Source: Raja brachyura
Taxonomy: Eukaryota
Direction: 5' to 3'
Length of the DNA stretch: 64,000 bases
Assembly: GCA_963514005.1 (NCBI GenBank)
Contig: OY740783.1
Location: 129,890,001-129,954,000, forward strand
Part shown: piece by piece, positions 7,307 through 63,813 of the stretch
Layout: each line of letters begins with the position of its first letter
How positions within the stretch are numbered: the stretch's first letter is position 1
The notes under the pieces: model-generated
Told to the model about the DNA's origin: nothing
Databases searched by the model: none
The model's input: only the letters and a program-made list of their open reading frames with translations
Program-made: the position numbers and the translations under genes

Positions 7307-7367
7307 ATGTGCTCTCTCCGAGTTTGTCTCTGCACCGTCCTGCTCTCCGTCTCAGTCCACGGTTACC
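7307..7367 (+). CDS. Exon 1, signal peptide [20 protein letters not shown]
   Basis: ATG in a gcgATGt context, 20-aa hydrophobic leader, phase-1 donor GTGAGT at 7368, in a non-repeat island. The link to exon 2 across 18 kb is inferred. Confidence 0.75.
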
Positions 7368-25300: not shown

Positions 25301-28300
25301 GTGTTTCTTCCCCTGTTGTTCTATTATTCACCTCTCTCTTCCCCCCTCTCTCTCTCTCCAGGCTTTTCGCACGATGGTTGGACAATGTCCGGTGCTGATG
25401 AGGTATCTGCGATGGAAGGGGCCTCTGCTGTGTTGCCGTGTACATTCACCTACCCACCCAATGGTGGCAACGTCACCGGCTCCGTGTTGTGGCACAACAA
25501 GTTGCCATTAGAGGCTCTCAGCCTTGTGTTTAAATGCACATATGCCGGTCCCGGCCGCCCCCGATGTGATGAAGTGACACAGAAGGCCGGAGGAGGTCGG
25601 TTCAAATTCGTGGGGAACCTCCCAGAGGGAGATGCCTCGATAATGGTGGAGCCGCTGAGAAAGAAGGACAGGAATAGTTACCGGTGCCGCGTGGAGCTCA
25701 CTGTTGGGGGTTTTCAATCTGTGATTCTCACGCAGCTGACTGTGGAAGGTGAGAACAATGTTCAGAAACTGTCGCTGCATCTTGTAGGGTCGGTGGGGGC
25801 GCTGCAAGCCGGCAGCCCCGTCAGCAGTGTGTTAGTCATTTCAACTTTTTTTATTTTTTTAGTGTGTTTTAAAGTGTGTTTTTTATGTTTCTTTGTGTGT
25901 CTTGTGTGGGGGGGATGAGGGGGAAACCGTTTCGGTCGCCTCCTTCACAGAGAGGCAACTTTTTCCAGGTCGCCTCCCGGTGGGCGAACAACAAGGATCG
26001 AGCGGCCTTTCCCGGAGACGCGCCCGGGGGTTCAGCGGCGGGCGCAGCGTGGACACTCGGCGGGGAGCAGGGGAGCAGGTGAGCCGTCGCCGGAGGGGAG
26101 CGCTCCGTTTCGCTGGTCCACGGCAGCCAGCAGCCTGAAGCCGCGGTCTGCAGAGCTCCAGCTGGCGCGGAGTCCGCAGCCTGGGATCCCCCCCGTTGGG
26201 AACCCGGGAGAAGAAGAAGCTCTCACCGCCGGCCCGCAGCCATCTTCTACCGCGGGCCCGGCGTGGACTAACCATCAGGAGTGGGGTCCCTCGCCTGGGA
26301 CCCCTGGAGGGGAGCTCCGACCGCCAGCCCTGCGGTCTGTGGTGCTTCTGGCTGCGGCGCGGCGGGAACTTTAAATCTTCGACCGCCGGCCTGCGGCCAA
26401 CACCAACCTGATGCCACGGTGTCTGGTGGGGAAGAGACGATTCTGGACTTACCTGGACTTTTACCTGCCTCGACATCTGGACGCCCGTAGCGGCGGCTGC
26501 GGAGGGTTGAGGTCCCGACCACGGGGGGAAATGGAGGAGGACTGGCCATTTTTTTTGCCTTCCACCACAGTGATGTATGCTGTGGTGGATGTTTGTGTTC
26601 AATTTTTAATGTGTTTTTGTGTGTTCTTTATCATTGTACCGCTGCTGACACATTCATTTCACTTGCACTTTGTGTGCAATGTGACGAATAAAACTGATTG
26701 ATTGATTGATTGTACAGTGAGTCATAGAGTTATACAGCATGGAAACAGGCCCTTCAGCCCAACTCATCCATGCTGACCCAGCTACACTAAACCGATTTGC
26801 CCATTATTTGACCCACATCCCTTTAAACCTTTTGTATCCGTGTGCCTGTCCAAATGTCTTTTAAATGTTGTTATAGTCCCTGCTTCAACTACCTCCTCTG
26901 GCAGCTCTCTCTATACATCCACCATGCTCTGTACCTTGAAGATTGAATACTCTAACCAAGTAGCCCTTGCATCCCCTCTCTCTCCATCCCTCCCCTACCC
27001 AAGCTTCAAAGTTGTCTTGTGTCTATCTTCAGAGTAAACCAGCATCAGGAACTGCAGATACTGGTTTACACTGAAGATAGACGTAAAATGCTGGAGTAAC
27101 TCAGCGGGACAGGCAGCATCTCTGGAGAGAAGGAATGGGTGATGTTTTTGGGTCGAGACACTTCTTCAGACAGAGTCAAGGGAGAGGGAGACACAAAGAT
27201 AATGAAGTGTAAGGTGTGAAAAGGAGACATCAAAGAGGATAAGTTCAAGGAAAATGTAAAATAGATCATTGTTAGCTAGAAGGAGGTGCCAATGTGCCGA
27301 AAGTCTTTTTGACCACCTTATCTACCTGCGACTCGACCTTCAAGGAACCATGCACCTGTACTCCAAGATCCCTCTGCTACACAACACTCCCCAGAGGCCC
27401 ACCATTCACTCTTCAGGTCCTGCCCTTGTTAGACTTCCCAAATTTAGAAAGGGCTGCAAGGAAAAGCCTGCAAACTACAATCCAATGAGCTTAACATATT
27501 TGGTAGGCAAGTTACTGGAGAGTATTCTGAGGTATAAGATATGTATTTGGATAGACAGGGACTGATTAAGGAGAGTCAGCATGGTTTTGTACGTGGGAGA
27601 TTGTCTCACAAATCAGATCGAGTTTTTTGGAGAGGCACCCAACAAGGTTGACGAGGCCAAATCCGTAAACGTTGCCTCTGTGGACTTCAGCAAGTCATTT
27701 AGTAAGGCTCCACTTGACAATAGACAATAGGTGCAGGAGTAGACCATTCAGCCCTTCGAGCCAGCACCGCCATTCAATGTGATCATGGCTGATCATCCAC
27801 AATCAGTACCCCGTTCCTGTATTCTCCCCATATTCCCTGACTCCGCTATCTTTAAGAGTCCTATCTGGCTCTCTTGAAAGTATTCAGAGAACCGACCTCC
27901 ACTGCCCTCTGAAGCAGAGAATTCCACAGCCTCACAACTCACTGAGAAAATGTGTTTCCTCGTCTCCATTCTAAATGGCTTACCCCTTATTCTTAAACTG
28001 TGGCCCCTGGTTCTGGACTCCCCCAACATCGGGAAAATATTTCCTGCCTCTAGCTTGTCCAAACCCCTAATAATCATATAGGTTTCAATAGGATACCCTA
28101 AATTCGAGGGTATACACGCCCAGCCGTTGCATTCTCTCAGCATATGACTGTCCTGCCATTCCGGGAATTAACCTTGTAAACCTTTGCTACACTCACTCAA
28201 TAGCAAGAATGTCCTTCCTCAAATTAGGGGACCAAAACTGCACACAATATTCCAGGTGTGGTCTCACTAGGGCCCTGTACAACTGCAGAAGGACCTCTTT

Positions 28301-34300: not shown

Positions 34301-37300
34301 GTCTTCCCCACTGAACATCTCCAGCCTTGGTCACTACCTCTACGCTTCTTCCATCACCTCATTCATCCCTCTCCTCACCAGGATCTATCTATCACTTGTC
34401 CAAAGTCTGAAGAAGGGTCTCCACCCAAAACATCACCCATTCCTTTTCTCCAGGGAAGCTGCCTGTCCTGCTGAGTTACTCCAGCATTTTGTGTCTACCT
34501 TCCATCTATCACTTGCCAGCTCTTGCACCACCACTCCCCTCACCTCTTTCTACAGCAATCTCCCCTCTACTCCGTCAGACTGAAGAAAGGAACCGATCCG
34601 AAAGGTCATCTGTCCATTTACCTCCCCGGATTGCTGGGGTCTTTTCACCACAACCCTCTGTCTATCAGTAAATTAGTTCTGAATCCAAATGGTCATGGCA
34701 CCATTAATCCTTCTGAGTCAGCCTACCATGAAGAGTGGCACGGTGGCACAGCGGTGGAGTTGCTGCCTCACAGCGCCAGAGACCCGGCTTCGATCCCGAC
34801 TACAGGTGCTGTCTGTTCTTTCGGTTTTTTCCGGGTGCTCAGATTTCCTGCCACACTCCAATAATCTGCAGGTTTGCAGGTTAATTGGCTTCTGTAAATT
34901 ATCCCTAGTGCGTGTAAGGTAGTGTTAAGCCCCTGTCCCACTTAGGAAACCTGAACGGAAACCTCTGGTGAGCTTGCCCGCGACGCAAGGTTTCCACGAG
35001 GTCGCCGGAGGTTTTGGTCACTCTCTCTAATGGTCGAAAGTGGTTTCCGCTTGGTCAAGGCTTCATCTAGGTTGCTTCGATTGTTTCAACAAAATCAAAA
35101 CCAGCCTCGACTAAAAATAGGTTGCTGTTTTAAAAATTAATAATTTTTTAGTCGCAGGTCTATTCGAAGCCGGTTTTCTTCACAGTCGAGGAAGGTTTTC
35201 AACATATGTGTGGGAGGTGGTAGAAGGTTGCAGGTCACCTCGACCTTGATTTTTTGTTTGGGTGGCGGGCAAGGTCTCCAGAGGTTGCTGTTTAGGTCTT
35301 GTCAGTGGGACAGGGGCTTAAAGGGGCTTAAAAGGTCTCCCGAGTGGGATGATTGCTGGTCGGCACGGACTCGGAGGGCCGAAAGTCCTGCTTCCACGCT
35401 GTATCTTTAAACTCAAATAGCATAAAAGATGCTGCCTGACCCGCTGAGTCCCTCCAGCACTTTCTTTTTTGCTGATGATTCCAGCATCTTCAGTTCCTTG
35501 AGTCTACAAGTTTGGCTGGTTGGGTTCTCTGGGGCAGTTTTTAAGCCTCGAATTTTTCCCCGATAAGTTGGTTGATTGCGGTCGGCGAGGTTCAACTGAT
35601 GCATTCCGGTGTCTGTCCTTCCCTCAGCGCCCGGCGGGAATGTCTCAGTGGTGACTGGGACTGTGGGAGGTTCGGCCACGTTACCCTGTGTGTATCAGCA
35701 ACCCCAGCGTTACCGCAGCGTCCTCACGGTCACATGGATGAGGAAGGATCCCTACCGACACATCGTCACGTTCACACACAAAGCTGATGGATCCTGGGCG
35801 GTGGAGAACGGAGCAACTCGGTTCGAGCTGGTCGGGGACCCAGAGCTGGGAAACGTCTCAACCAGGATAAACCAGCTGAGTGTGGAGGACAGTGACGGCT
35901 ACCAGTGTCTGGTGGAGTTCAGCAAACCGGAATACTACGATGCGACAAAGGACGTCGACGCACATTTGAGGAGCAGCGTACACCCCCCGTACACCCATCA
36001 GTACCAGCGTGAGGTCCGGCTCCAGGTCCAGCAGCCGCTCGCACCCGGTAAGAAACCATCGCCACGTTCTGCCGTGTGGAGCGAAGGTCAATAGTTTGCC
36101 TGAACCCCACCCCACCCCCACACATGTGCCGTTCAGTGTAGCTTCCTCTCCCGTGCCCGGACCCTTGCGCTGAATGCCGTGTGTGTCACTCCCAGAGTCA
36201 GACCGACTGACGGAGTCCGAACCAGTGAGTCGTTATTCATAGAGTTGTAGAGAGTCACAGAGTCCCAGGTCCTTCTGCCCATCTTGCCCACGCCGACCAA
36301 CATGCCCCATCAACACTAGTCCCGCCTGTCCACATTTGGCCCATATCCTTCTAAACTTATCCTCCCCAAGAACCTGTCTAAATGTCTCTTAAATGTTGCA
36401 AGAATCCCTGCCTCAACCACCTCCTCCTGCGGCTCTTTCCTTACACCCACCAATCTTTGTGTAAAAAAAGTTACCCCTCAGATTCCTATTAAATCTTTCC
36501 CGCCTCACCTTAAATCTATGTCAGGTGGTTCTGGATTCCCCAACTCTGGACAAAAGACTGTGTGTGTTTACCCGATCTATTCCTCTCATGATTTTTATAC
36601 ACCTCTATAAGATCGCCCCTCATCCTCCTGCGCTCCAAGGAATAATGTCCTAGCCTGCTCAACGTCTCCCTACAGCTCAGCATGTCAAGTCACATCCTTG
36701 GCAACACCCTTGTAAATCATCTCTGCATCCTTTCCAGCTTGACAGCATCGTTCAAGTTCAAATGTATTTGTCACGTGCACCATAAGGTGCAGTGAAATGT
36801 GATTTACCATGCAGTGTTACAATTAAAAAAGGACATAGTACACAATGTAATTCAACACACATCCACCACAGCATTCTTCACTGTGGTGGAAGGCAATACT
36901 GTTCAGACAGTCCCGTACATGGTGACCAAAACTGAACACAATATTCCAAATGTGGCCTCTCCTATGTCTTATACAACAGTAACATATCCTCCCAACTTCC
37001 ATACTCAATACTCTGACTGATGAAGACCAATGTGCCAAAAGCCTTTATGATCACCCTATCATCGGCTGATATTCAATCACGGCTGATCTGTCTTTCCCTC
37101 TCAACCCCATTCTCCTGCCTTCTCCCCATAACCCCTGATACCAAAACCAGTCAAGAATCTATGAATCTCCGCCTTAATAAATATTCATTGACTTGGCCCC
37201 CATGCCCGTCTGTGGTAATGAATTCCACAGATTCACTACCCTGTTACTCACGAAATATCGCCTCAACTCCTTCCTAAAGGTACATTATTTTATTCTCAGG

Positions 37301-40300
37301 CTATGGCCTCTGATCCCAGACTCTCCCACTAGTGGAAACATCATCTCCACATCCATTCTATCCAGGTCATTCACCATTCGGTGAGTTCCCCCCCTCATCC
37401 TCAACTCCAGCAAGTACAGACCCAGTGCCGTTCTAACGTTCATCATATGTTAACCCAATGAATAAGTTTATGAATGAATAAATGAATGAAGGAATTAGTT
37501 TATTGGCCAAGTATTCACATACAAAGAATTTGCCTTGGTGCTCCGCCCGCAAGTGACAACATGACATGCAGTGACAATTAAGAATGATACATAAAACATT
37601 AAACATTAATAATAAATAATTCCTGGGATCATTCTCTTAAACCCCCTCTGGACCCTTTCCAGAGCCAGCACATCCTTCCTCAGATATGGGGCCTAACATT
37701 ACTCACAATGCTCCAAATGCGATCTGACCAGTGCCTTGCAGAGCATTCCATCCCTGTTTTTGTATTATAGTCCTCTCAAAATAAATGCTAGCATTGCATT
37801 TTCCTTCCTTACTACCCATTCAACATGCGGATTAATGTTTTGGGAAACCTGCACCAACACTCCCAAGACCCTTTACATCTCTGGTCATTCAGTCAAGTCC
37901 AATGTCCGCTATGGTGTAGAGGTGACTCGGATAGTACCCTATCTCATGGAAGGACTGTTCAGACAGTGCATCTTATCCCTCAGAATACTGTCTCATAACT
38001 TTCTGACCACAGATAGTTAGACTCACAGCACTGTCATTCCCAGGATTTTCCCAGCCACCCTTCTTAAACAGAGGCACAACATTTGCCACCCTCCAGTCTC
38101 GTCATTTACGGCAGCACGGTGGCGCATCGGTAGAGTTACTGCTCTACAGTGCCGGAGACCCGGGTTCGATCCAGACTATGGGTGCTGTCTGAGCGGAGTT
38201 TGTACGTTCTCCCCGTGACCTGCGTGGGTTTTCTCCAAGATCTTTAGTTTCCTCCCCACACTGCAAAGACGTACAGGTTTGTAGGTTAATTGGCTTGGTA
38301 TAAATGTAAAACATTGTCCCTAATGTGTGTGTAGGACCGTGTTAATGATGTCCATGTGGACTCGACGGGACGAAGGGCCTGTTTCCACGCTGTATCTCTA
38401 AAATAAATAAAACTAAATTTAGATCATTTACCTTAATTCACAAGCAAGTTAGAAATGGCGTTCCCACATACGAGTTATTTGATGGATCATCATTGATCAT
38501 ATGTTAAGGCCGGGTGTGAACACATGGGCCTACTGATCTCCCGGTCTTCACTGCTCTTTTTTTACAGTGACACCAACAGTGACACCAACAGTGACATCAA
38601 CGTACATCCTGCTCATTCTGATTGCCCTCCTCATGCTCTGCATCCTGCTCATTATTATTCTCTGGAAGAAAGGAGGTGAGTTGACCTACAAATAAGCCAT
38701 TGCAATTCTCTGTCTGCTATCGATTATTATTGTTCCTTGCACCGGGATGCAGAGATCAGCTTTGCTTATGTGCTGGGGGTTACACAAAAAGCTGGAGAAA
38801 CTCAGCGGGTGCAGCAGCATCAAAGGAGCGAAGGAGATAGGCGACGTTTCGGGTCGAGACAGACAGCATTTTCTTCAGACAGCATTTGCTTATGTGCTAT
38901 CGTTTGTCTTTAATTGGACGTCGCACTTCACGCTGGCTCGGCAAGACCACCGGCATAATCAAGGACCGGTGGGTGGGGGGGGAGGAAGAGTGGGTGAGGG
39001 GGGGGGGGGGGGTGAGGGGGGGGGGGAAGTGGGTGAGGGTGGGGAGTGGGTGAGGGTGGGGAGTGGGTGAGGGGAGACAGTGTGTGAGGGGAGACAGTGT
39101 GTTGGGGGGGGAGAATGGGTGTGTGAGGGGGGGGAGTGGGTGAGGGGGAGCAAGTGGGTGAGGGGGGGGAGTGGGTGAGGGGGGAGAGTGGGTGAGGGGG
39201 GGGGAAGAGTGGGTGGGGGGGAGTGGGTGAGGGGTTGGAGATTGCCTTTGGGCTGTAACTTTGATGAATCTTTATTATTCTACATTTGTTATACAATGTG
39301 GATGTCAGCCATTACCTTAATCTTTTCTCATCTCTTTATTCCTGCAGTGTTTTCATCCGTAATGAGGTCAGCCACATTTTCAAAAAGGTAAGAGGGGACA
39401 TGAATCCAAGGCTAAGCGGGGTGGCACGGTGGCGCAGCGGGTAGAGCTGCTGCCTCACAGCGCCAGAGACCCGGGTTCGATCCTGACTACGGGTGCCGTC
39501 TGTACGGAGTTTGTACGTTCTCCTCGTGACCGCGTGGGTTTTCTCCGGGTGCTACGGTTTCCTCACACACTCCAAATACGTACGGCGTTGTAGGATAATA
39601 GGCTTCTCTGCATTGTAAATTGTCCCTAGTAGAGTGAGTAGGATAGTGCTCGTGTACTGCCGATCGCTGGTCGGTGCTGACTCGCTGGGCCGAAGGGCCT
39701 GTTTCCACGCTGTGTGACTAAACTAAAGTGTAAAGTCTAGCATCGCACATTTCCACACTGGGTAAAAAGGTTTTGACAGTCTACCATATCCATACCTCTC
39801 ATTATTGTACATCATACAGGTGTATGGGTTTGTAGGTTAATTGGTTGGTAAAATTGTAAACTGTCCCTACTGCGTAGGGTAGTGCTAGTGTACAGCATGG
39901 ACTCGGTGGGCCGAAAGGCCTGTTTCCGCACTGTATCTCCGAAGTAAAATTTCATATACTCACTGTGGTAAGCACCCTCTGAGATCTGTGGTGTGAGCAG
40001 GAAGTTGAGATGCGCGGATTGCCATGAGATTTCCTGGGCGTTTGATGCAATTTCCTCACGTTGGTTCCTCTCTCTGTAGGAGCGCTGTGAGTCCGGATGT
40101 CACTGGCCGAGGGGCACAGCTGCAGTGTGATTCAGGTACTGAGCGAGCACCTTCTACCCTGCCCAAGGCAGCAAGCAGACCAAAACCAACAGGAGGGCTG
40201 CAGGTAGCAAATGGAGGGTGGAGACAGTACGGGACTGCACACGAGGAAATGCAGATGCTGGTTTGCAAAATAAAATACACAAAGTGCTAGAACAACTGAG

Positions 40301-43300
40301 GCGGCACAGTGGTGCAGCATTGGAGTCGCTGCCTTACAGTGCCAGAGACCCGGGTTCGATCCTAGCTACAATGCTGCCTGTACTGAATTTGTGCGTTCTC
40401 CCCGTGACCGTGTGGGTTTTCTCCATGTGTGTAATTATACCCCTAAAGCTTAACCCCCTTTAGTCTCGTTCAGTAAAACAGTGAGTTAAACGCCAGATCA
40501 CTATTCTTTATTCTTTTCAACAATAGCAAACTCCCTCTACAATGCCTAACCACCGCGGGTCCATTCCTTGTCTCTGCTCATTTAAGCCCTTCAGCCCCGT
40601 GTAAGCGGACACCTCCAAAGGTTTACGCAGTCCAGAGCGCCCCTCCAGAAGATCGACTCCAATCCTCGTGGGGTCCACTCTTTTATAGGTCATCTTACCC
40701 TGTGGCGCCCCTACAAACCAATCACAAATATTGATTACATTGTACAGTTATTGACAGTTCCCTAAACCAATTACAAAGTTCCACATTACAATGTTTCAAC
40801 AGAAGCTTCTGGAAGGAAGTCAGTTCACTAAAGTAATGCAACACTTTCCCCGGTAGTATAAACATTTCAAAGAAGGTTTCACACAACAACCTGGGTTGTG
40901 GGGTCAATTCTCAAGGCTCTGAGAGCAAGGATAAGTTTAATGGGAAGAGGGACTAGCACCGACTTGATGGGTGTATTCCTTGAGAGGATTCTATGATGTG
41001 GAACTCATTGCCACAGACGGTGATGGAGGCCAAGACATCGGGTATTTTTAAGGTAGAGATCGACAGTCTCTTGACAGTACAGGTGCCAAAGGTTATGGGG
41101 AGAAGGCAGGAGAATGTGGTTCAGAGGGAAAGATAGATCAGCCATGATTGAATTGTGGAGTAGACTCGATGGGCCGAATGGCCTATTTCTGCTTCTATCA
41201 CTTATGAAATTATGATTCTCTTGAGAGGAATAGTGTAAATACAGTCTTTTACCCCAACTGGGGAATCGAGAACCAGAGGACAAAGGTTTAAGTTCAGAGA
41301 GGAAGGACTTAATAGGAATCTGAGGGGCAATTTTTATACATAGCGGGTGCTGGGTGTGTGGAACGAGCTGCCAGAGGAGGTAGCTACTATCATAATGTTT
41401 AAAATAAGATTTGGACAGGTACATGAATAGGAAAGGTGGGACTAGTATAGAAGTGGGCATGTTGGGCCGAAGGGCCTGTTTCCACTCTGTATCATTCTAA
41501 GACTGATTGGTGTTACAGAGCGTGACAATAATGTGGTATCCAACAGCGACGAGGTAGGTGAACATTAGCACCTTATTTTGAGTCAGAGCTGTGATCTAAT
41601 TTGTGTTCCAAGCTTGGTCGGGCAACCCAGAGAACATCTCCCCACACATTAACACCATCCTACACACACCATCCTTCGCCTACCGAGGTCGCGTCGACCA
41701 GCGATCACCCTGTACGCTAGCACTATCTTACACACTGGGGACAATTTACAATTTTACCAACCAACCTAATCAAGAATATACTAATCTTCACCATAGACAT
41801 ATCGACTGACTTGCCCCTCACATACCCCCCCTCAGCGGGTCAGGCGTCATCCCTGGAGAACACGGATGGGTAACGGTCCAGGTTAGGATCCCACTGAAGG
41901 TTCAGGCTCAGGTTTATTATTGTCATGTGTACCGAGGTACGGTGAAAAGCTTTAGCTTTGCGTGCTGTCCAGAACGTAAGTGAGTAAGTTTATTGGCCAA
42001 GTATTCACATACAAGGAATTTGCCTTGGTGCTCCGCCCACAAGTAACAACATGACATACAGTGACAGTTACGATTGATTCAGAAAACACAAAACATTAAT
42101 AATAATTAAACATTAATGATAAAACACCTGAGTCTGAAGAAGGGTCTCGACCCGAAACGTCGCCTATCTCCTTCGCTCCTTAGATGCTGCTGCACCCGCT
42201 GAGTTTCTCCAGCTTTTTGTGTAACCCAATGATAAAACACCATTGATCAAGCATGTGAACCAACAAAATACCAGATCAAAGGGAGGCTACAGATTTTTGG
42301 CTGTTAAGTAGAGCAACTACTTGTGGATAAAAACTGTGTTTATGTCTGGCTGTGGCAGCTTTGACAGTCCGGAGTTGCCTTCCAGAGGGAAGTGATTCAA
42401 AGAGTTTGTGGCCAGGGTGAGAGGGGTCAGAGATGATCTTGCCCGCTCGCTTCCTGGCCCTTGCAGTGTACAGTTCATCAATGGAGGGAAGGTTGCAGCC
42501 AATAACCTTCTCTGCTGATCGGACGATTCACTGCAGCCTCCGGGTGTCGTGCTTGGTGCCTGAGCCAAACCAGACCATGATGGAGAAGGTGAGAACAGAC
42601 TCTACGATTGACCTGTAGAATTGGACCATCATTACATGTGGCAGATTGTGCTTCCTCAGCTGCCGTAGGAAGTACATCCTCTGTTGTGCCTTTTTGACTG
42701 TGGAGTCGATGGTCACCCCCCACTTAAGGTCCTTGGAGATGATGGTTCCCAGGAACTTAAAGACTCCACAGATGTGACTGTGGTGTTGTTGATGGTGATT
42801 GGGGTGAGGGGAGGGGGAGCTCTTCTAAAGTCTACAATCAATTCCATTGTCTTAAGAGCATTGAGCTCCAGGTTGTTGCGAAGGCACCAGGACGCCAGCT
42901 GTGACACTCAGCTCAAATACAATCAGTTGAAGCTCAAGTGCAATAGGCAGAGCTAAGGGGAAGATACAGAGTGCAGAACCCTTGAGGTCGGCTGCAGGCA
43001 CAAAGGCGGGTGGGTGAGGAGATGGACGGGGCATCCAAGAAAGGAGACGGCTGGAGGCCCACAACAGCCTGGGACTCGCCTGGAACAGGCACCGCTCATC
43101 TGCACTGGAGCGTGGACTCTGGAAATGGCACCAAAACATGGCGCCTCTTGCATGCGGGGTCAGTAGACTGTTTCTGTACACTTGCTAATCAAGGCAATAC
43201 TCTACTGGAGTGTATGTAAGTTAGAGAATTTCACCGTGTTAGCACTTCACACATGTAATAATAAAAGCACCATTGAATATAGTTCAGCATTGTAGTTCAT

Positions 43301-46300
43301 CAGTTCCTTACAAGAAGGGTCCCAAGTGCTGGTTAACAAAAAAGAGACACTTAGTGCTGGAGTAACTCAGCGGTTCAGGCAGCTTCTCTGGAGATCAAAG
43401 CTATTTAGGGGCAGCACATGGTGGTGCAGCTGTAGAGTTGCATCCTCACAGCGCCAGAGACCCGGGTTCCATCTTGATTATGGGTGCTGTCTGTACAAAG
43501 TTTGTCCGTTCTCCCTGTGACCACACACGTGGTTCAGGAGCCTACTTCAGATACTTCGGGTTGGGGCCAGAGCTGAAACGTCACCTATCCACATTCTCCA
43601 GAGATGCTGCCTGACCCGCTGAGTTACTCCAGCACTCTGTGAAACGTCACCTATCCATGTTCTCCACAGATGCTGCCTGACCCGCTGAGTTACTCCAGCA
43701 CTCTGTGAAACGTCACCTATCCATGTTCTCCACAGATGCTGCCTGACCCTCTCTCTCTCCCTCTCCCTCGTTTGAAGGAGTAACTCTCGTGTGCTTTACA
43801 GATCAGGCTGAGTCCAGCACGTACGCCAGCATTATCATCAACAGTGGAAAAGCGAAGAAGCCGCAGGCAGATGATGAAGGTACACACCTTGCTCACAGTC
43901 ATAGAGTGATACAGCGTGGAAACAGACCGCTTGGCCCAACTAGCCCACACCGGCCAACATGTTCCAGCTACACTAGTCCCACCTGCCCATGTTTGGTCCA
44001 TATCCCTCCAAACCTGTCCTAAAAAATGGGTTCCAATCCCACTTCTGACACCATGTTGAGTGATGACCAAACAATAACAGAAGGCTTGCACCAAGATAAA
44101 GATCCAAAGACTTTATTAACTACATAGCAAGCATGACTTCACACTTCCACGTTCAACTTACAATAAAGGAATCCAGCGTGCAGTTATAACTGAAAAGCTA
44201 GTGGGCGTAACTACATGACTCATGAAATGAGTGACACTAATCTACACCCATGTACCTGTCTGAATGTTTCTTAAATGTTGGGATAGTCCCAGCCTCAACT
44301 ACCTCCTCTGGCAGCTCGTTCCATACACCCACCACCCTGTGTGTGAAAAAGTTACCCCTCAAATACCTATTAAATCTTTTCCCCTTCACCTTCAACCTAT
44401 GTCCTATGGTCCTTGATTCACCAACTCTGGGCAAGAGACTCCGTGCGATTACCCGATCTATTCCTCTCAACACCAAGTCCCACATCCCTCACAGTTCGAC
44501 TGGTTGACTAATGGCACATTCTCCTTTACCTCCAGGTGCGCAGAAACCTGAAGCTGCAAACTCAGGTGAGAATGATTCTGTTCCTACTTTACGTTAGTTG
44601 AGTTTAGAGATACAGCGTGGAAACAGGCCCTTCCGCTCACCGTGCCCGCACCGACCAGCGATCCCCGCACATTAACACTACCCTACACTAGGGGACAATT
44701 TTTACATTTAGACCAAGCCAGTTAACCTACAAGCCTGTACGTCTTTGGAGGGTGGGAGGAAACCGAAGATCTCGGAGAAAACCCACGCAGGTCACGGGGA
44801 GAACGTACAAACTCCGTACAGACAGAACCCATAGATGAGCTCGAACCTGGGTCTCCAGCGCTGCATTCACTGTAAGGCAGCAACTCTACCGCTGCGCCAC
44901 CGTGACTTTAGAGATACAGCGTGGAAATGGGCCCTTTGGCCCACAGAGTCCGTGCCAACCAGCGATCACCCTGTACGCTAGCACCATCTTACACACTAGG
45001 GACAATTTACAATCTGACCAACCAACCTAATCAAGAACATATTAATCTCCACCATAGATATATCGATCGACTTGCCCTCCCCCAGCCGTCTATGGCAATG
45101 AATTCCACAGATTCACTACCCTCTGACACATGTCTCTTTCTATTCATGTGTGTGTCTGTAAATTACTGTGTCAAGATTTCACTTATTCACGGGAACAGCA
45201 ATCAGATCAGGTAAAGTGTTGGCACAAGGAACTGCAGATGCTGGTTTACAAACAAGTGCTGGATTAACTCAGTGGGTCAGGCGTCATCCCTGGAGAACAC
45301 GGATGGATAACATTTCCGGTCAGTTCCCACTGAAGGTTCAGGCTCAGGTTTATTATTGTCATGTGTACCGAGGTACGGTGAAAAGCTATGGCTTTGTGTG
45401 CTTTCCAGAACGTAAATATAATCAGTTGAAGCTCAAGTGCAATAGGCTGAGCTAAGGGGAAGATACAGAGTGCAGAGCACTTGAGATCGACTGCGGGGAA
45501 CAAAGGCGGGCGGGCGAAGTGAGGGACGGGGCATCCAAGGAAGGAGACGGCTGGAGGCCCACAACAGCCTGGGACTCACCTGGAACAGGTTCCTAGCATC
45601 TGCACTGGCGCATGGACGCTGAAAATGGTGGGCTGGCAGTTGACTCACGGCTATTCCTTGAAATTCCATTTCAAGCAGGGTGCAAGGCCACCAAATTCCA
45701 GTGCAGTTTCTTACCACTTCAAGCAGTGTGCAAGGCCACCAAATTCAAGTGCAGTGTCATACAACTTCAAACAGGGTGCAAGGCCACCAAATTCAAGTGC
45801 AATTTCATACCATTTGAAGCAGGCTGCAAGGCCACTAAAGACAGCAAGTCGTGACCTCTCCCTCCTCCATCGTGCAGAGACTGAGCCACGCCCACACTTC
45901 TGGGTTTTATAGTCCCTTCCCCCCTCCCATCAGAAGGGGCATGGCCTTCATGGTGTGATTGACAGGAGAGAGACTCTCAACATTTTTTAAACACTAATAA
46001 CTTTTATTTTTCACCGATGGGAAAAGTCTTTGGCACCTGATGAGCGGAGGGGGACTCAGAGTAAGTTGGCCAAAAATCACAGCCATACGTGGTAGCGTTT
46101 TTTCTAAAATCAATGTAAAGCGCAAACAGGAAGTGGTCAAGATTAGACTTTTAATTATAGAGAAGGCAAGGCAACTTTAATTAGGCAAGGCAACTTTAAG
46201 TAGGCAAGGGAACTTTAATTAGGCAAGGCAACTTTAATTAGGCAACACAGCTTTAGCATTGCCAAACCAAAGGCAACACAGCGCTAGCATTTCCAAACCA

Positions 46301-49300
46301 AAGGCAACACAGGTTTAGCATTTCCAAACCAAAGGCAACACAGCCTTCGCATTTCCAAACTATATTTTCAAACCACATTAAGGGCACTGACAGGTCAGTA
46401 AAACCACTCACAGTTTAGTAGACATGTGTTCAGTGTTATTCACAGCTCAGACTGAGAGACGTGACCCTCTCGCTCCCACATCTTGCAGAGACTGACTGAG
46501 ACATTCAACACTTCCGTGTTTTATAGTCCCTTCAGAAGGGGCATGGCCTTCAGAGGAGAAAATCTCAACATTTTTAAAACACTGATAACTCTTTTATTTT
46601 TCATCGATGGGAAAAATCCTCTTGTCCTGCGCAGCGGAGGGGAACTCTGAGTAAGATGGCCAAAAATCACAGCCGTAAGTGGCAGTGTTTTTTCTAAAAT
46701 CAATATACAGAACAACAGGAAATGGTCAAGATCAGACATTTAGTAATATCGATGTTCTCCAGAGATGCTGCCTGACCCGCTGAGTTACTCCAGCACTCTG
46801 TGAAACGTCACCTATCCATGTTCTCCACAGATGCTGCCTGACCCGCTGAGTTACTCCAGCACTCTGTGAAACGTCACCTATCCATGTTCTCCACAGATGC
46901 TGCCTGACCCGCTGAGTTACTCCAGCACCTTGGCTCGTGTATATGCGCCTCTCTCTCTCTCTGTAGTTTGAAGGAGTAACTCTCGTGTGCTTTACAGATC
47001 AGGCTGAATCCTGCACGTACGCCAGCATTATCATCAACAGTGGAAAAGTGAAAAAGCCGCAGGCAGATGATGAAGGTACACACCGTGCTCACAGTCATAG
47101 AGTGATACAGCGTGGAAACCATGTTGAGTGATGACCAAACAATAACAGAAGCCTTGCACCAAGATAAAGATCCAAAGACTTTATTAACTACATAGCAAGC
47201 ATGACTTCACACTTGCACGTTCAACTTACACTAAAGGAATCCAGCATGCAGTTATAACTGAAAAGCTAGTGGGCGTAACTACAGAAGCATGACTCATGAA
47301 ATGAGTGACACTAATTTACACCCATGTACCTGTCTGAATGTTTGTTAAATGTTGGGATAGTCCCAGCCTCAACTACCTCCTCTGGCAGCTCGTTCCATAC
47401 ACCCACCACCCTGTGTGTGAAAAAGTTACCCCTCAAATTCCTATTAAATCTTTTCCCCTTCACCTTCAACCTATGTCCTACGGTCCTTGATTCACCACCT
47501 CTGGGCAAGAGACTCTGTGCGTCTACCCAATCTATTCCTCTCAACACCAATTTCCACATCCCTCACAGTTCGACTGGTTGACTAATGGCACATTCTCCTT
47601 TACTTCCAGGTGCGCAGAAACCTGAAGCTGCAAACTCAGGTGAGAATGATTCTGTTCCTACTTTACGTTAGTTGAGTTTAGAGATACAGCGTGGAAACAG
47701 GCCCTTCCGCTCACCGTGCCCGCACCGACCAGCGATCCCCGCACATTAACACTACCCTACACTAGGGGACAATTTTGACATTAAAGGGCCCGTCCCACAT
47801 GGCCATCATTTGCGCGCCATTAACGCGATCTGGTAGCCTGTGGGTAACGTGGGACGGGCGCATGGAGTGACGTGGAGGAGTGTGGATCCAGATCCGCCGC
47901 ATTCCTACTCCCAGAGCGGGGTCAAGACGATTGAAGATCGACACAAAATGCAGGAGTAACTCAGCGGGACCGGCAGCATCTCTGGAGAGAAGGAATGAGT
48001 GGCGTTTTGGGTCGAGACCCTTCTTCAGACTGAAAAAGAGTCTTGACCAGAAACATCATCCATCTTCAAATGACGTCACGCGCTCCAGACGGCTGTGCGG
48101 GCACATGATGACGCGTGTCAGTCACTACCTGTCACGTAAATGACGGCCAAGTGGGACAGGCCCTTTAGACCAAGCCAGTTAACCTACAAACCTGCACGTC
48201 TTTGGAGTGTGGGAGGAAACCGAAAATGTCAGAGAAAACCAACGCAGGTCACGGGGAGAATGTAGAAACTCCGTACAGATAGCACCCATAGTCGAGATCG
48301 AACCCGGGTCTCGAATCCATTCAGCCCTTCGAGCCATTCAATATGATCATGGCTGATTATTCAAAATCAGTACCCCGTTCCTGTTTTCTCCCCGTATACC
48401 TTGATTCCATTAGCCCTAAGAGCTATATCTGACTCTCTTGAATATATCCAGTGAATTGGCCTCCACTGCCTTCATAGATTCACAACTCTCTGGGTGAAAA
48501 AGCCTTTCATCTCAGTCCTAAATAGCCAACCCCTTATTCAAGCGAATACAAGCCCAGTCGACCCATTCTTTCGTCATATGTCTGTCCCACAATCCCAGGA
48601 ATTAACCTGGTGAACCTAAACTGCACTCCCTCAACAGCAAGAATGTCCTTCCACAAATTAGGAGACCAAAATTGCACACAATACTCCAAGTGCGGTCTCA
48701 CCTGGGTCCTGTACAACTGCAGTAGGACCTCCTTGCTCCGAAACTCAAATCCTCTCTCAATAAAGGCCCACATGCCAGTAGCTTTCTCCACTGCCTGCTG
48801 TACCTGCATGCTTACTTTCAGTGACTGATGTACAAGAACACCCAAGTCTCATTGCACCTCCACTTCTCCTAATCTGGCACCATTCAGATAATAATCTGCC
48901 TTCCTGTTTTTGCCACCAAAGTGGATAACCTCATATTTATCCACATGATACTGCATTTGCCATGCATCTGCCCACTCAGTCAACCTATCCAAGTCACCCT
49001 GCAGCCTCATAGCATCCTCCTCGCAGCTCACACTGCCACCCAGATTTGTGTCATCCGCAAACTTGGAGATGTCACATTTAATTCCCTCGTCTAAATTGTT
49101 AATATATATTGTAAATAACTGGGTCCCAGCACTGAGCCTTGCGGTACCGCACTGGTCACTGCCTGCCACTCTGAAAAGGACCCGTTAATTCCTATTCTTT
49201 GCTTCCTGCCTGCCAACCAGTTCTCTATCCATGTCAATACCCTACCCACAATACCATGTGCTCTAATTTTACCCACTAATCTCTTGTGTGGGACCTTGTC

Positions 49301-58972: not shown

Positions 58973-59717
58973 AAGTGTCGTGATAATACCCGTCTCGACA
59001 ACCTCCTCCAGCAGCTCCTTATACAATATATTGTTGAGGCTGCGTTTGGAGTATTGTGGTCAGTTTTTTGTGTTCAGCTTTTGTCATCCTGCAGCAGGAA
59101 AGACGTGGTTACATAGGGAAGGATGCAGAGAAGATTTACGATGATGCTGCCAGGATTCAAGGAGCCCCAGCTTCAGGGAGAGGTTGGGCAGGTTAGGACT
59201 TTGCACCTTGGAACACAGAAGGATGAGGAGTGATCTTGGCGAGGTGTACAAAATCATGAGAGGAATAGATAAGGTGAACACACAGTCTTTACCCAGGGTA
59301 GGGGCATCAAGAAGGGGCACAGTCTTAGAATAAAGGCGAGTCCATTTAAGACTGAGGTGAGAAAAAACTTTTTCACCCAGAGAGTTGTGAATTTGTGGAA
59401 TTCCCTGCCACAGAGGGCAGTGGAGGCCAAATCACTGGATGGATTTAAGAGAGAGTTAGATAGAGCTCTAGGGACTGGTGGAATCAAGGGATATGGGGAG
59501 GAGGCAGGCACGGGTTATTGATTGGGGATGATCAGCCATGATCCTATTGAATGGCGGTGCTGCCTCAAAGGGTCGAATGGCCTCCTCCTGCACCTATTTT
59601 CTATGTTTGTAAGAACAGGGGACATAGGCTTAAGGTGTGGGGAGAAAGATTTAATAGAAATCTGAGGGTCAACTTTTTTACACAAAGGATGGTGGGTATA
59701 TAGAACAAGCTACCAGA

Positions 59718-62700
59718 ACTGCTAGCACAGTTGAATAGATTGAAATCAGACGTGATTTTCCTTCAAGAGACTCATCTTAAAAGAGATGCTCAACATAGAT
59801 TAACAGCAAAATGGATTTCCAAGGTATATCACTCTTCATTTATACACAAATCTAGAGGAGTTGCAATAATTATCCGTAAAGGTATACCTTTTAAACAAAA
59901 TTCTATAATAGAGGACAAAGAGGGTAGATATGTAATAATTACAGGGGAATTATATTCACAGAAAATAATTTTGGTGAATATATATGCCCCTAATTTTGAT
60001 AACCCACTATTTTTTAAGAAAATATTTAATAATATTCCTATTTCCACTCAATATAATTTAGTTATTGGGGGTGATTTTAATTGCACCTTAGATAGCTACC
60101 TAGACAGGTCTTCTACAAAAAGGAAAGCTACCTCTAATTCAAGTAAATGTTAAGGATATTTGGAGACTAGATAATCCATCCGGACGAGAATACTCGTTTT
60201 TTTCGCCCGTATATGGAACCTATTCTAGGATAGATTATTTTTTAATAGACTCAAAATTACTACCTTTTACGTATGACACAAAATATCATAATATTATTAT
60301 TTCAGATCATGCGCCACTAACATTCAAGATAAAACTAAAAGATATACTTAATAAAACGACTACTTGGAGATTTAATCCCCAGATATTAAAGGATAAGGAC
60401 TGTTGTAAACATGTAATGGAACAGATTAAACTATTTTTTGAAACTAATGACAAACCTGAGATTTCACCATCGTTACTCTGGGACACATTTAAAGCATTTA
60501 TGTGTGGTGCAATAATATCAGCACAGGCTTATTTTAATAAAGAAAATAGAAAGATGGAACAAAGGTTAGAAAATGAGATAAAACAACTAGATAGTGAAAA
60601 CATAAAACGCCCTTCTAAAGAGCTAAGTAATAAAATTGCAATAGCAAAATATAGACTAAATAAAATATATTCTAACCAAGTCATTAAACTATTTCAACAA
60701 ACCAAACAAGTGCACTTTGAGTTTGGAGACAAACCACAAAAACTGTTAGCACGACAACTTAGAAAATTAGAAGATGAAAAATTGATACATAGAATTAGAT
60801 CTGCGGATGGAAATATATTGACGATACCAAAAGATATTTATGATAGATTTCTACAATATTATCAAAATCTTTATTCATCTAAATTAACAGGACAAACAGT
60901 TGGTATGGAAACATTCCTACAAGAGTGTCAAATTAACAGTCTAGATCAGGAAGGTAGACATTTGTTAAACGCTGAAATAACAGTAAAAGATATTGAAGAA
61001 TCAATTAGTTCGTTAAAGAATGGAAAAGCAGCGGGCCCTGATGGCCTGAATGCAGAATTTTATAAAAAATTTCTAGACCTGATTTCCCCAAGATTATATA
61101 CAGTATATAGATATGCATATGAACAAGGCAAATTACCAGAATCTTTAAACAAATCCACAATTACACTCATTCCTAAGGTAGATAAGGATTTGGAAGATCC
61201 AGGATCATATAGAGCGATCGCACTTCTAAATACAGACCAAAAAATATTAACTAAAGTTTTATCTCAGAGATTAAGTTTAGTGATTTCTAAATTAATACAT
61301 CATGATCAAACAGGTTTTATTCCAAAACGCTATTCATCCCATAATCTCAGACGCTTGTTTAATATTATATATTCAAAAAGAGTACGGGACAGGGAATTAG
61401 CACTTGTATCGCTAGATGCAGAAAAGGCATTTGATCAGGTGAAATGGTTATATTTATTTAATATAATGGAAAAGTTTCAATTGGGGGATAGATTCTGTAA
61501 AGGGATAAGAATTTTATATTTGAATCCAACGGCAAGAATTTTAACTAATCAAATATTATCAGCTAAATTTAAGCTCTCTAGGGGATGTAGACAGCGATGT
61601 CCGTTATCGCCTTTACTATTTGCTTTGATGATAGAGCCCTTGGCGGAAAGAATCAGATCTGAACCTGAAATCTATGGCTATAATACTGACACAACAACTA
61701 ACAAAATATCTTTATATGCAGATGACGTTTTGATTTATATTACAAAACCGGAAATTAGTATACCTAAGCTGTTTAATGTTATAACAAAATTTGGCACATT
61801 TTCAGGATTTAGGATTAATTGGAACAAAAGTGATATTATGCCTATAACAGGAATTAATTTAAATATATTACAACAATATCCATTAAAAATAGTTACAGAC
61901 AAATTTAAATATTTAGGAATTAATGTAACTAAATCTTATAAATCACTAATTAATTCTAATTACCCTCTATTATTAGATAAACTTTAAAAAAATATTTTGT
62001 ATTGGAAAACACTTCCTATATCCATGATTGGAAGAATAAATGCTATAAAGATGGTGTTTTTACCACAATTATTATATTTGTTTCAGGCTATTCCTTTTTT
62101 TCTCCCAAAGACTTTAAAAAAAAAAGATAATATTATTTATAGTTTTATTTGGGATTATAAAAATCATAGAATAAGTAAAAAACATTTATGTAAATCTAAG
62201 ATAAACGGAGGACTAGCACTTCCAAATTTTTTATATTATTTTTGGGCAGTCCAGATTAAGAATATGAATTTTTGGTGGGTAAATATGGATCATGAACCAA
62301 TGTGGTTAAAGATGGAAAAGGAAGATTGTTTACCTTATAATGTAGGCTCGATTCTCTTTGCCCCAAAGGAAGTACAAAAAAAATTTATAGGGACAACCCT
62401 ATAATTTATAATAATAGACGTATTTGGAAACAAATAGTTAAGACTTTACAGCTAGATAATCTCTCACTCAGACTACCAATAACGAATAACCCATTATTTA
62501 AACCCTCTATATTGGATGGAGGGTTTAGACATTGGGATGATTTAGGAATTAAAAGGATAGAGCACCTTTATAGAAAAGTAAAATTTCTTTTATTCCAAGA
62601 GTTACAAGATATCTACGGATTGTCTCCGCAACACTTGTTTAGGTACTTACAAATTAGAGATTATATAAAATCCAACACACAAGATTATAAAAATAAAGTA

Positions 62701-63813
62701 CCAGGATTATTAGATGATTTGTTTAATTTGCACACAAATACAGAAAAATTAATAGCCTATATATATAACATAATTTTGGATAAGGAGAATCCGACAACTG
62801 AAACATATCGTCAAGCATGGGAGAATGAAATTGGTTTATCCATAACAAAAGAAAATTGGGAAGAAAGTTTACAGCAAATACATCGGTGTTCGTTAAATGC
62901 CGGACATACATTGATACAATTCAAAGTATTATATAGATTACATTATTCAAAAACTAAATTAAATAGTATCTTTCCCAATCTCTCTTCAATTTGTGATAAA
63001 TATAAGAATTTAGAAGCAAATTTAACACACAGTTTTGCTACATGTCCCAAATTGAATCACTACTGGACAGAAAATTTTAAGGTTATTTCTGAGGTTCTTA
63101 AAATTAGATTGGATCCAGACGCAAAGTTATTAATACTTGGAATTTTGGATTCAAATTCGGTACTTACAGTAAATCAAAGAAATTTATTTGATTACTGTTT
63201 GATAATAGGGAAAAAAATCATATTGAAATTTTGGAAGGGAACATTAACCCCCACAATTAAAATGTGGGCAGCAGAAATGTTGGAGACGTTACAATTAGAA
63301 AGAATCAGATTTGTCCTATTGGACAAATATAATACCTTCGAACAAATATGGTCTCCATATATACAGTATTTAGAGAAGTAGCTGTTCTTGACATCACAGC
63401 TTGACGGGTACCCTGCGGGACGATGAGAATAACATATTCTTATACTAGGATTAATAGGCATGTCTTCATTGATATTATTATTTTTTAATAGTTTTAGATA
63501 CAATATATTTTGTTGATTTTCATTTATATATATATAATATCTTTTCACTTTTTGTTAACCTTTTTTCCTTTCTCTATTTTCTTTTTCTCTTTTATATAAT
63601 CAAATTATTATTTAATCACTCTCTTATTGATTTAAAACTACTCTATCCTTATCTTTATTTCCTAAAAAAATAGAAGATAATAACTTTCAACGGGTTATTT
63701 AAAAAAAATATGGAATTAAGTTGATGTTTGTATATGTTTACACTATTGTAAATTGATTACTTCTAATAAAAGAAATTAAACAAGAGATTCATACAACTGC
63801 TAAAAAAAAAAAA
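59718..63813 (+). mobile_element. L1-clade LINE, truncated near the start of ORF2, with several stops/frameshifts, 3'UTR and poly(A)
   Basis: FLQETH, NIYAPN and GGDFN (APE). KAAGPDG, SLDAEKAFD and YADD (RT). AATAAA at 63765-63770 and an A-tail at 63802-63813. AT-rich, inserted in a CR1 fragment. Confidence 0.95.

What the first reader, a model, noticed from the sequence alone, without database searches (positions are those of the whole stretch)
41690..48312. ITIM number increased by tandem duplication of a two-exon module
Seen: a ~3.3-kb unit with a 78-nt ITIM exon and a 30-nt spacer exon, both phase 1-1, is present twice. The exons differ at only a few bases (S>C, A>V) and keep their splice sites. 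The introns have since gained different insertions: Rex1 in copy 1, Helitron-like and Harbinger elements in copy 2. So the duplication is real and not recent. Both copies start in SINE-tail sequence. Inference: SINE-mediated unequal crossover created a modular, skippable cassette that could give tails with 1, 2 or 3 tyrosine motifs.
Basis: partly seen in the sequence, partly recalled or inferred. Interest (0 to 1): 0.7.

Follow-up and report, generated by a model that had tools for sequence, protein, structure and literature searches.

The report
Old tail duplication, later overwritten copy
A skate immune-receptor gene carries two near-identical copies of a small signalling module; other skates have two as well, so this is likely an old duplication in which one copy was later overwritten by the other, not a newly gained inhibitory signal.

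Summary
The duplication is real. A 78-nt tyrosine-motif exon and a 30-nt spacer exon occur twice, in frame, in an 11-exon, 440-aa Siglec-15-like receptor (two V domains, membrane helix, tail) of a skate.

It did not raise motif number here. Amblyraja and Leucoraja homologues have the same two modules, and 9 of 11 complete family tails carry two or more internal motifs.

The copies look alike because a 1.1-kb core was homogenised. Flanks differ 10.6%, the core 2.8% (p=8e-9), and module 1 now has module-2 residues at 5 of 5 diagnostic sites. A paralog 3.4 Mb away joins a copy-1 left flank to a copy-2 right flank around one module, so it contracted.

The motif is non-canonical. Cys at Y-2 is ancestral, so the change was C>S in copy 1; only the terminal VIYAAV is a strict ITIM.

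Skipping is in frame and annotated in Leucoraja isoforms. One RNA-like run shows a Y-to-spacer splice directly and, indirectly, use of both modules. SINE-mediated crossover is plausible but unproven.

The mechanics are ordinary. The elasmobranch Siglec-15-like paired-receptor family was not found in the literature searched.

The parts
7307..7367 (+). Exon 1, signal peptide (ATG to phase-1 donor)
   Evidence: matches homologue leaders
25362..25748 (+). Exon 2, V-set domain 1, Siglec-15-like (four Cys, F-strand Arg in YRCRVE)
35628..36047 (+). Exon 3, V-set domain 2
38568..38675 (+). Exon 4, stalk and uncharged transmembrane helix
39348..39387 (+). Exon 5, cytoplasmic (phase 1-2)
   Evidence: conserved in both paralogs
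40080..40135 (+). Exon 6, cytoplasmic (phase 2-1)
41639..41671 (.). 33-nt remnant of a left-flank SINE ('Z') that survives at ~250 nt in paralog N
   Evidence: (100% over 33 nt)
41678..43128 (+). Copy 1 old flank; 10.6% from copy 2 (44939-45628), 2.8% from paralog P
41978..42914 (-). Copy-1-only DNA with a LINE fragment (PF09004; Rex1-like by recall); its LINE part is also in paralog P
43594..44706 (+). Copy 1 homogenised core holding exons 7 and 8
43802..43879 (+). Exon 7, tyrosine-motif exon 1 (STYASI; Ser derived from Cys)
44536..44565 (+). Exon 8, spacer exon 1
44594..44904 (.). Full-length SINE at the junction of the copies; candidate crossover product
44939..45628 (+). Copy 2 old flank; 45118-45298 is also kept by paralog N
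45629..46754 (.). Copy-2-only repeat DNA: tandem arrays and two ~320-nt units (Helitron-like by recall)
46755..47780 (+). Copy 2 core (likely donor) holding exons 9 and 10
46998..47075 (+). Exon 9, tyrosine-motif exon 2 (CTYASI, ancestral form)
47610..47639 (+). Exon 10, spacer exon 2
47782..48167 (.). Harbinger-type MITE, 38-nt inverted arms; marks the right end of the homogenised core; same site in paralogs P and N
52167..52201 (+). Exon 11, coding part: terminal ITIM VIYAAV and stop

Best explanation
Two in-frame copies of a tyrosine-exon plus spacer-exon module lie in the tail of a likely inhibitory, Siglec-15-like receptor; the duplication likely predates the split from Amblyraja and Leucoraja, and gene conversion likely overwrote module 1 with module 2 later. 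Order of events (inferred): (1) tandem duplication, possibly by unequal crossover between same-orientation SINEs; (2) copy-specific gains or losses of repeat DNA; (3) whole-gene duplications giving paralogs P and N; (4) at about the same time, conversion of the 1.1-kb core from copy 2 into copy 1, bounded by non-homologous DNA on both sides; (5) deletion of one module in P; (6) a C>S change in exon 7. Function (inferred): after V1 binds a probably sialylated ligand, Src-family kinases would phosphorylate the tail. The terminal VIYAAV and an internal [C/S]TYASI would then engage the tandem SH2 domains of SHP-1/2. Skipping a module would change the number and spacing of internal sites rather than switch inhibition on or off.
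For: Shown: flank 53/499 versus core 23/816 differences between copies (p=8e-9), while the same segments differ evenly from paralog P (14/499 versus 33/816, p=0.28). P's left flank sides with copy 1 at 46 sites against 7, yet P carries the copy-2 MITE. N's right flank sides with copy 2 at 14 sites against 2. Amblyraja and Leucoraja proteins have Y-S-Y-S-terminal tails; their module-1 exons differ from each other by 2 of 25 residues but from their own module 2 by 7. The window's module 1 has module-2 residues at 4 of 4 Y-exon sites and at the one spacer site. Cys stands at Y-2 in 22 of 36 internal motifs in 42 homologue records (isoforms included), Ser in none. Run X4 covers exons but not unique intron and has a GT..AG Y-to-spacer joint; contig ends fit forks at the S/C codon and after spacer+A.
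Against: Orthology to the Amblyraja and Leucoraja genes rests on protein likeness; their intron DNA could not be fetched, so that theirs is the same duplication is inferred. The three core sequences are not significantly different from a star (10/13/20 sites, p=0.16), so the order of conversion and the P split is unresolved. No spacer-to-Y joint was listed, and no contig with the exon-9 bases at positions 52 and 56 was shown; use of exon 9 is inferred from contig geometry in one run of one sample. Phosphatase recruitment and sialic-acid binding are untested.
Confidence: 0.7

Rival explanations
1. Accordion: a one-module haplotype (like paralog P) recombined unequally with a two-module haplotype and re-expanded. 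The result equals conversion, but by two crossovers.
For: P shows that contraction between the cores happens. Core similarity ends where homology is interrupted.
Against: It predicts that copy 1's core groups with P. It does not: P=copy1 at 10 sites, P=copy2 at 13, copy1=copy2 at 20, though the difference is not significant.
Confidence: 0.17
2. One reading: a lineage-specific duplication raised this receptor from two to three tyrosine motifs.
For: The unit is a clean tandem with SINEs of one orientation at both ends. Paralog P has a single Y exon, and the genome search found only 3 Y exons.
Against: P is a mosaic of copy-1 and copy-2 flanks, so it is derived, not ancestral. 9 of 11 complete homologue tails have two or more internal motifs. 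Two other skate genera have Y-S-Y-S.
Confidence: 0.09
3. The core is alike because of purifying selection or slower mutation, not conversion.
For: The core holds both exons.
Against: Core introns (19/708) are no more diverged than exons (4/108, p=0.53) and include a LINE fragment. The core is not slower against P.
Confidence: 0.02
4. The tandem is an assembly mis-join of two haplotypes.
For: No laid contig spans the whole region.
Against: Flanks differ by 10.6%. Paralog N keeps copy-2-specific DNA. Homologues have two modules. An X2 contig crosses a copy-2-specific junction (45360-45555) with no difference (possibly the assembled individual).
Confidence: 0.02

Closest known systems
Siglec-15
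   Same: Best solved-structure match for V1 (E 2e-12) and V2 (E 7.5e-9). V1 keeps the WxM start, the cysteines and the Arg aligned in xCRVE. 10 of 36 homologues have a membrane Lys, the DAP10/12-pairing feature of Siglec-15 (PMC7226832, passages).
   Different: The second domain is V-set rather than C2-type. This gene has an uncharged helix and a tyrosine tail. It sits in a multigene cluster on contig C3, while urea-transporter genes, recalled as neighbours of mammalian SIGLEC15, are on C1.
Paired Ig receptors with gene conversion (Xenopus CEACAMs, PMC5112662 passages; Siglec-5/14, recalled)
   Same: Inhibitory and activating-type members, homogenised ectodomains (paralog N is 2.6-2.8% from this gene in the V exons), and fast V-exon change against P.
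   Different: Here conversion acts inside one gene, between tail modules, not between ligand-binding exons of two genes.
Skate MDIRs (named in PMC3031540, passages)
   Same: Multigene activating/inhibitory Ig receptors of a skate.
   Different: MDIRs are described there as CD300/TREM/pIgR-like; V1 here is closest to Siglec-15.
RefSeq LOC129695285 (Leucoraja) and LOC116971354 (Amblyraja)
   Same: Same domain order and Y-S-Y-S-terminal tail; module-skipping isoform models in Leucoraja.
   Different: Their two modules remain distinct (7 of 25 residues); here they differ by 2.

Membership tests
ITIM (strict, [I/V/L/S]xYxx[L/V], PMC7226832) | Terminal motif VIYAAV fits | tested here: met
ITIM (strict) | Duplicated motifs STYASI and CTYASI fit | tested here: not met
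   Both end in Ile; CTYASI also has Cys at Y-2. STYASI fits only the relaxed form allowing Ile at Y+3 (recalled).
ITIM (functional) | Phosphorylation-dependent SHP-1/SHP-2 or SHIP binding | not testable with these tools
   needs biochemistry
Siglec | N-terminal V-set domain with F-strand Arg | tested here: met
   Arg aligned with the Arg of Siglec-15 FCRVEF; that this is R143 is recalled
Siglec | C2-set domain(s) after the V-set domain | tested here: not met
   domain 2 is Pfam V-set, E 1.7e-12
Siglec | Arg-dependent sialic-acid binding | not testable with these tools
   needs a glycan assay
Siglec-15 ortholog | Transmembrane Lys, no ITIM | tested here: not met
   absent in this gene; Lys present in 10 of 36 homologues
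Siglec-15 ortholog | Conserved synteny | tested here: inconclusive
   one recalled marker (PF03253) maps to C1, not C3
MDIR | Sequence affinity to MDIR1-4 | not tested
   source paper not held; no MDIR-named hit among 36 homologues
SINE-mediated unequal crossover | Same-orientation SINEs at both ends of the ancestral unit | tested here: met
   SINE Z in paralog N and the SINE at 47668-48314
SINE-mediated unequal crossover | Hybrid SINE at the junction | tested here: inconclusive
   3 shared-derived sites with each parent; one strong site per side in the expected order (44721, 44840); 44848 lies past the end of Z
Intragenic gene conversion | Tract more alike than flanks, not explained by rate or coding constraint | tested here: met
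Harbinger-type MITE | Terminal inverted repeats and a 3-bp TWA target | tested here: met
   38-nt arms; TAA/TTA flanks, TTA empty site; family name recalled, no library

The most novel reading that the evidence does not exclude
Sharks and rays have their own expanded, fast-evolving paired-receptor family built on a Siglec-15-type domain, parallel to the CD33-related Siglecs of mammals. Its inhibitory tails work as an accordion: a conserved non-canonical Cys-x-Tyr motif exon is duplicated, converted, skipped and deleted gene by gene. A 97%-identical neighbour that lost the tyrosine exons and has a membrane Arg is a paired decoy or activating partner in the making.
Probability: 0.35. Interest if true: 0.62.

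Novelty: new member of a known kind. Interest (0 to 1): 0.36.

Why it matters
As a duplication it is ordinary, and it warns that near-identical tandem exons can hide an old event under recent conversion. Its value is as a documented case of signalling-tail turnover: three paralogs in one genome hold two, one and no tyrosine exons. It also points to an elasmobranch Siglec-15-like paired family that six literature searches did not find described. If sialic-acid binding and SHP recruitment by the Cys-type motif were shown, it would bear on how old inhibitory Siglec signalling is and on how wide the ITIM definition should be.

Tried and rejected
Sequencing runs: no RNA holder was listed; X4's RNA nature is inferred only. 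Laying four runs on 38400-52600 was swamped by repeats, with 16,597 joints not shown, so isoform skipping in this species and copy number in the second individual (X3) could not be read. ESM Atlas gave only generic V-set clusters. Earlier-findings look-ups returned nothing. Literature searches for a description of this family found none. Searches (ITIM exon duplication; role of Y-2) returned no papers, and one search listed none that I opened for this. The original MDIR paper is not held. A tree of 25-residue modules was not built (too short); distances only. Whether the shark and stingray two-motif tails stem from the same duplication as the skates' is unresolved: skate modules are closer to each other (7 of 25 in Amblyraja and in Leucoraja) than to either stingray module (10-14). 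P as the pre-duplication state was rejected (mosaic flanks). No structure or complex prediction was run; it would not bear on the question.
Full report
Setting. The window lies near the end of contig C3 of a 2.7-Gb genome. The closest named homologues are from Leucoraja and Amblyraja (69-71% over V1), so the animal is taken to be a skate (inference). Eleven exons with AG/GT ends give one open frame of 440 aa: leader, two Pfam V-set domains, an uncharged membrane helix and a tail. The tail order is C1, C2, Y1, S1, Y2, S2, terminal exon, with motifs STYASI, CTYASI and VIYAAV.

Observation. The tandem is real. The Y exons differ at 4 of 78 bases and the spacer exons at 0 of 30. All six skipping combinations tried keep the frame. 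The inverted arms and empty site of the MITE are shown. The LINE fragment has a PF09004 hit. The names Rex1, Helitron and Harbinger are recalled, as no repeat library was available.

Uneven divergence. Between copies, the upstream flank differs at 53 of 499 aligned sites (10.6%). The core 43753-44706 differs at 23 of 816 (2.8%; Fisher p=8e-9), and the adjoining 159-nt tandem block at 1. The right flank differs at 16 of 151. Against paralog P the same flank and core differ evenly (2.8% and 4.0%, p=0.28), so slow mutation is not the cause. Core exons are not better kept than core introns (4/108 versus 19/708, p=0.53). The core ends at non-homologous DNA on the left and at the MITE site on the right. 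This is the pattern of gene conversion on an older duplication (inference).

Paralogs. V1 matches 32 places in the genome, mostly on C3. Only three Y exons, two terminal exons and three membrane exons of this type were found.

Paralog P (C3:133.36-133.42 Mb, inverted, about 94% alike over tens of kb) has one Y exon reading CTYASI. Its left flank is copy-1 type (46 sites against 7) and includes the LINE fragment, but it also carries the copy-2 MITE. It is therefore a contraction of a two-module gene, not the ancestral state.

Paralog N (C3:129.82-129.87 Mb) has V exons 2.6-2.8% from this gene, a split C2 exon, one spacer exon and no Y or terminal exon. It keeps copy-2-specific DNA at both sides of the core. 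The tandem thus predates both gene duplications.

Homologues. Of 36 proteins found, 11 have a complete tail ending in VxY[AS]xV. Nine of these have two or more internal motifs and two have one; one of those two is isoform X2 of a gene whose X1 has two. Ten of 36 have a membrane Lys and no internal or terminal motif of this type. The Amblyraja protein and Leucoraja isoform X1 have the exact Y-S-Y-S-terminal order; Leucoraja X2 lacks spacer 1 and X3 lacks module 1. These are automated RefSeq models. Their module 1 carries K, S, N, T at four sites and L in the spacer. The window's module 1 has the module-2 residue at all five, which gives the direction 2 to 1. Cys is at Y-2 in 22 of 36 internal motifs and Ser in none (42 records, isoforms counted), so STYASI is derived.

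Motif status. By the signature [I/V/L/S]-x-Y-x-x-[L/V] (PMC7226832, passages) only VIYAAV is an ITIM. STYASI fits a relaxed form (recalled); CTYASI fits neither. The conservation of CTYA[ST]I across skates, stingrays and sharks suggests function, which is untested.

RNA. No run is on record as RNA. Run X4 (same sample as X1 and X2) covers the exons, has no cover over unique intron at 47142-47333 and 47550-47597, and shows a GT..AG joint skipping 534 nt from Y to spacer at depth 15, with 2 other letters, as expected of the exon-7 or P form. That contig starts at Y base 16. Bin depths admit one solution for the upstream pieces, 46995-47042 at depth about 16, which fits a graph merge at the S/C codon. 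The contig ends one base past the spacer. A 443-nt contig matching the terminal exon with no difference begins with 25 unlaid letters (record 32), the length expected for spacer bases 2-30. A fork after spacer+A needs a second exon starting with A, which is the Y exon. A piece at 47611-47636 of depth about 5.5 fits this, but it is 1 of 32 numerical solutions over two placements of the cut, and no such joint was listed. So the Y-to-spacer splice is shown; spacer-to-terminal and spacer-to-Y are inferred from one run.

Mechanism of the duplication. Homology now starts in a SINE tail (41678/44939), but the junction holds a full SINE (44594-44904) directly before that tail. Paralog N shows a same-orientation SINE just left of the unit, of which 33 nt remain at 41639-41671. 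A crossover between it and the right-flank SINE predicts a hybrid at the junction. Polarised against 41 other SINE pieces, three derived sites are shared with each parent. One strong site per side lies in the expected order (44721 right parent, 44840 left parent), and one site is past the left parent's end. The last 55 nt survive in neither parent. I put SINE-mediated crossover at about even odds.

Comparison with known systems. V1 and V2 both match Siglec-15 best among solved structures, with the key Arg aligned in V1. The second domain is V-set and the helix lacks Lys, so it is not filed as a Siglec-15 ortholog; it likely works like an inhibitory CD33-related Siglec. Conversion among paired receptors is known (PMC5112662, passages). 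MDIRs are known skate receptors of another stated affinity (PMC3031540, passages). PMC4810170 and PMC8455134 were seen as one passage each and added nothing. Other papers were seen as search listings only, and no supplements were read. Searches found no description of this family; most subscription journals are outside the library.

Verdict. The feature is real and its mechanics are familiar. The better story is an old module duplication reworked by conversion and deletion within a paired-receptor cluster. Interest 0.36.

Noticed in passing
G000:C3:129823838-129870627 (L007-L012), paralog N just upstream of the window: Ectodomain exons are 97% identical to this gene, but the membrane exon is diverged and has Arg near its outer end (ILRIL). 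C2 is split by a 2.4-kb insertion, and the Y and terminal exons are lost. Candidate decoy or activating partner, or a pseudogene.
   Followed up: partly
window 25362-25748 and 35628-36047 versus paralog P: V exons differ at 75 of 792 bases (9.5%) against 239 of 5577 (4.3%) in introns (p=1e-8): a sign of diversifying selection or exon exchange on the ligand-binding domains.
   Followed up: partly
G000:C3:133373677-133378560 (L003), paralog P: A separate ~500-nt duplication holding the spacer exon flanks a ~3.9-kb insert, likely a LINE, so P could encode Y-S-S-terminal. P also lacks window 48014-50934, with similar repeats at both ends of the gap.
   Followed up: partly
G000:C3:120.3, 128.4-129.0, 133.4-133.5 Mb; C987; C1459: Further V1-like exons, some with stops or split: a larger, partly inverted cluster of the same family.
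   Followed up: no
window 13813-18332, minus strand: Element in intron 1 with long ORFs resembling reverse transcriptase/RNase H, a methyltransferase and a tyrosine recombinase; DIRS-like by recall.
   Followed up: no
window 59700-63381, plus strand: LINE with endonuclease and reverse-transcriptase frames broken by a few stops.
   Followed up: no
homologues P0001-P0004: Shark and electric-ray members have the V1-V2 pair doubled: module duplication in the ectodomain as well.
   Followed up: no
homologue P0027 (Hypanus): Four tyrosine motifs in the tail, one V domain: further tail-length variation in the family.
   Followed up: no
window 38568-38590: A 12-nt tandem duplication at the start of the membrane exon (VTPT twice), absent from P and N.
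   Followed up: no
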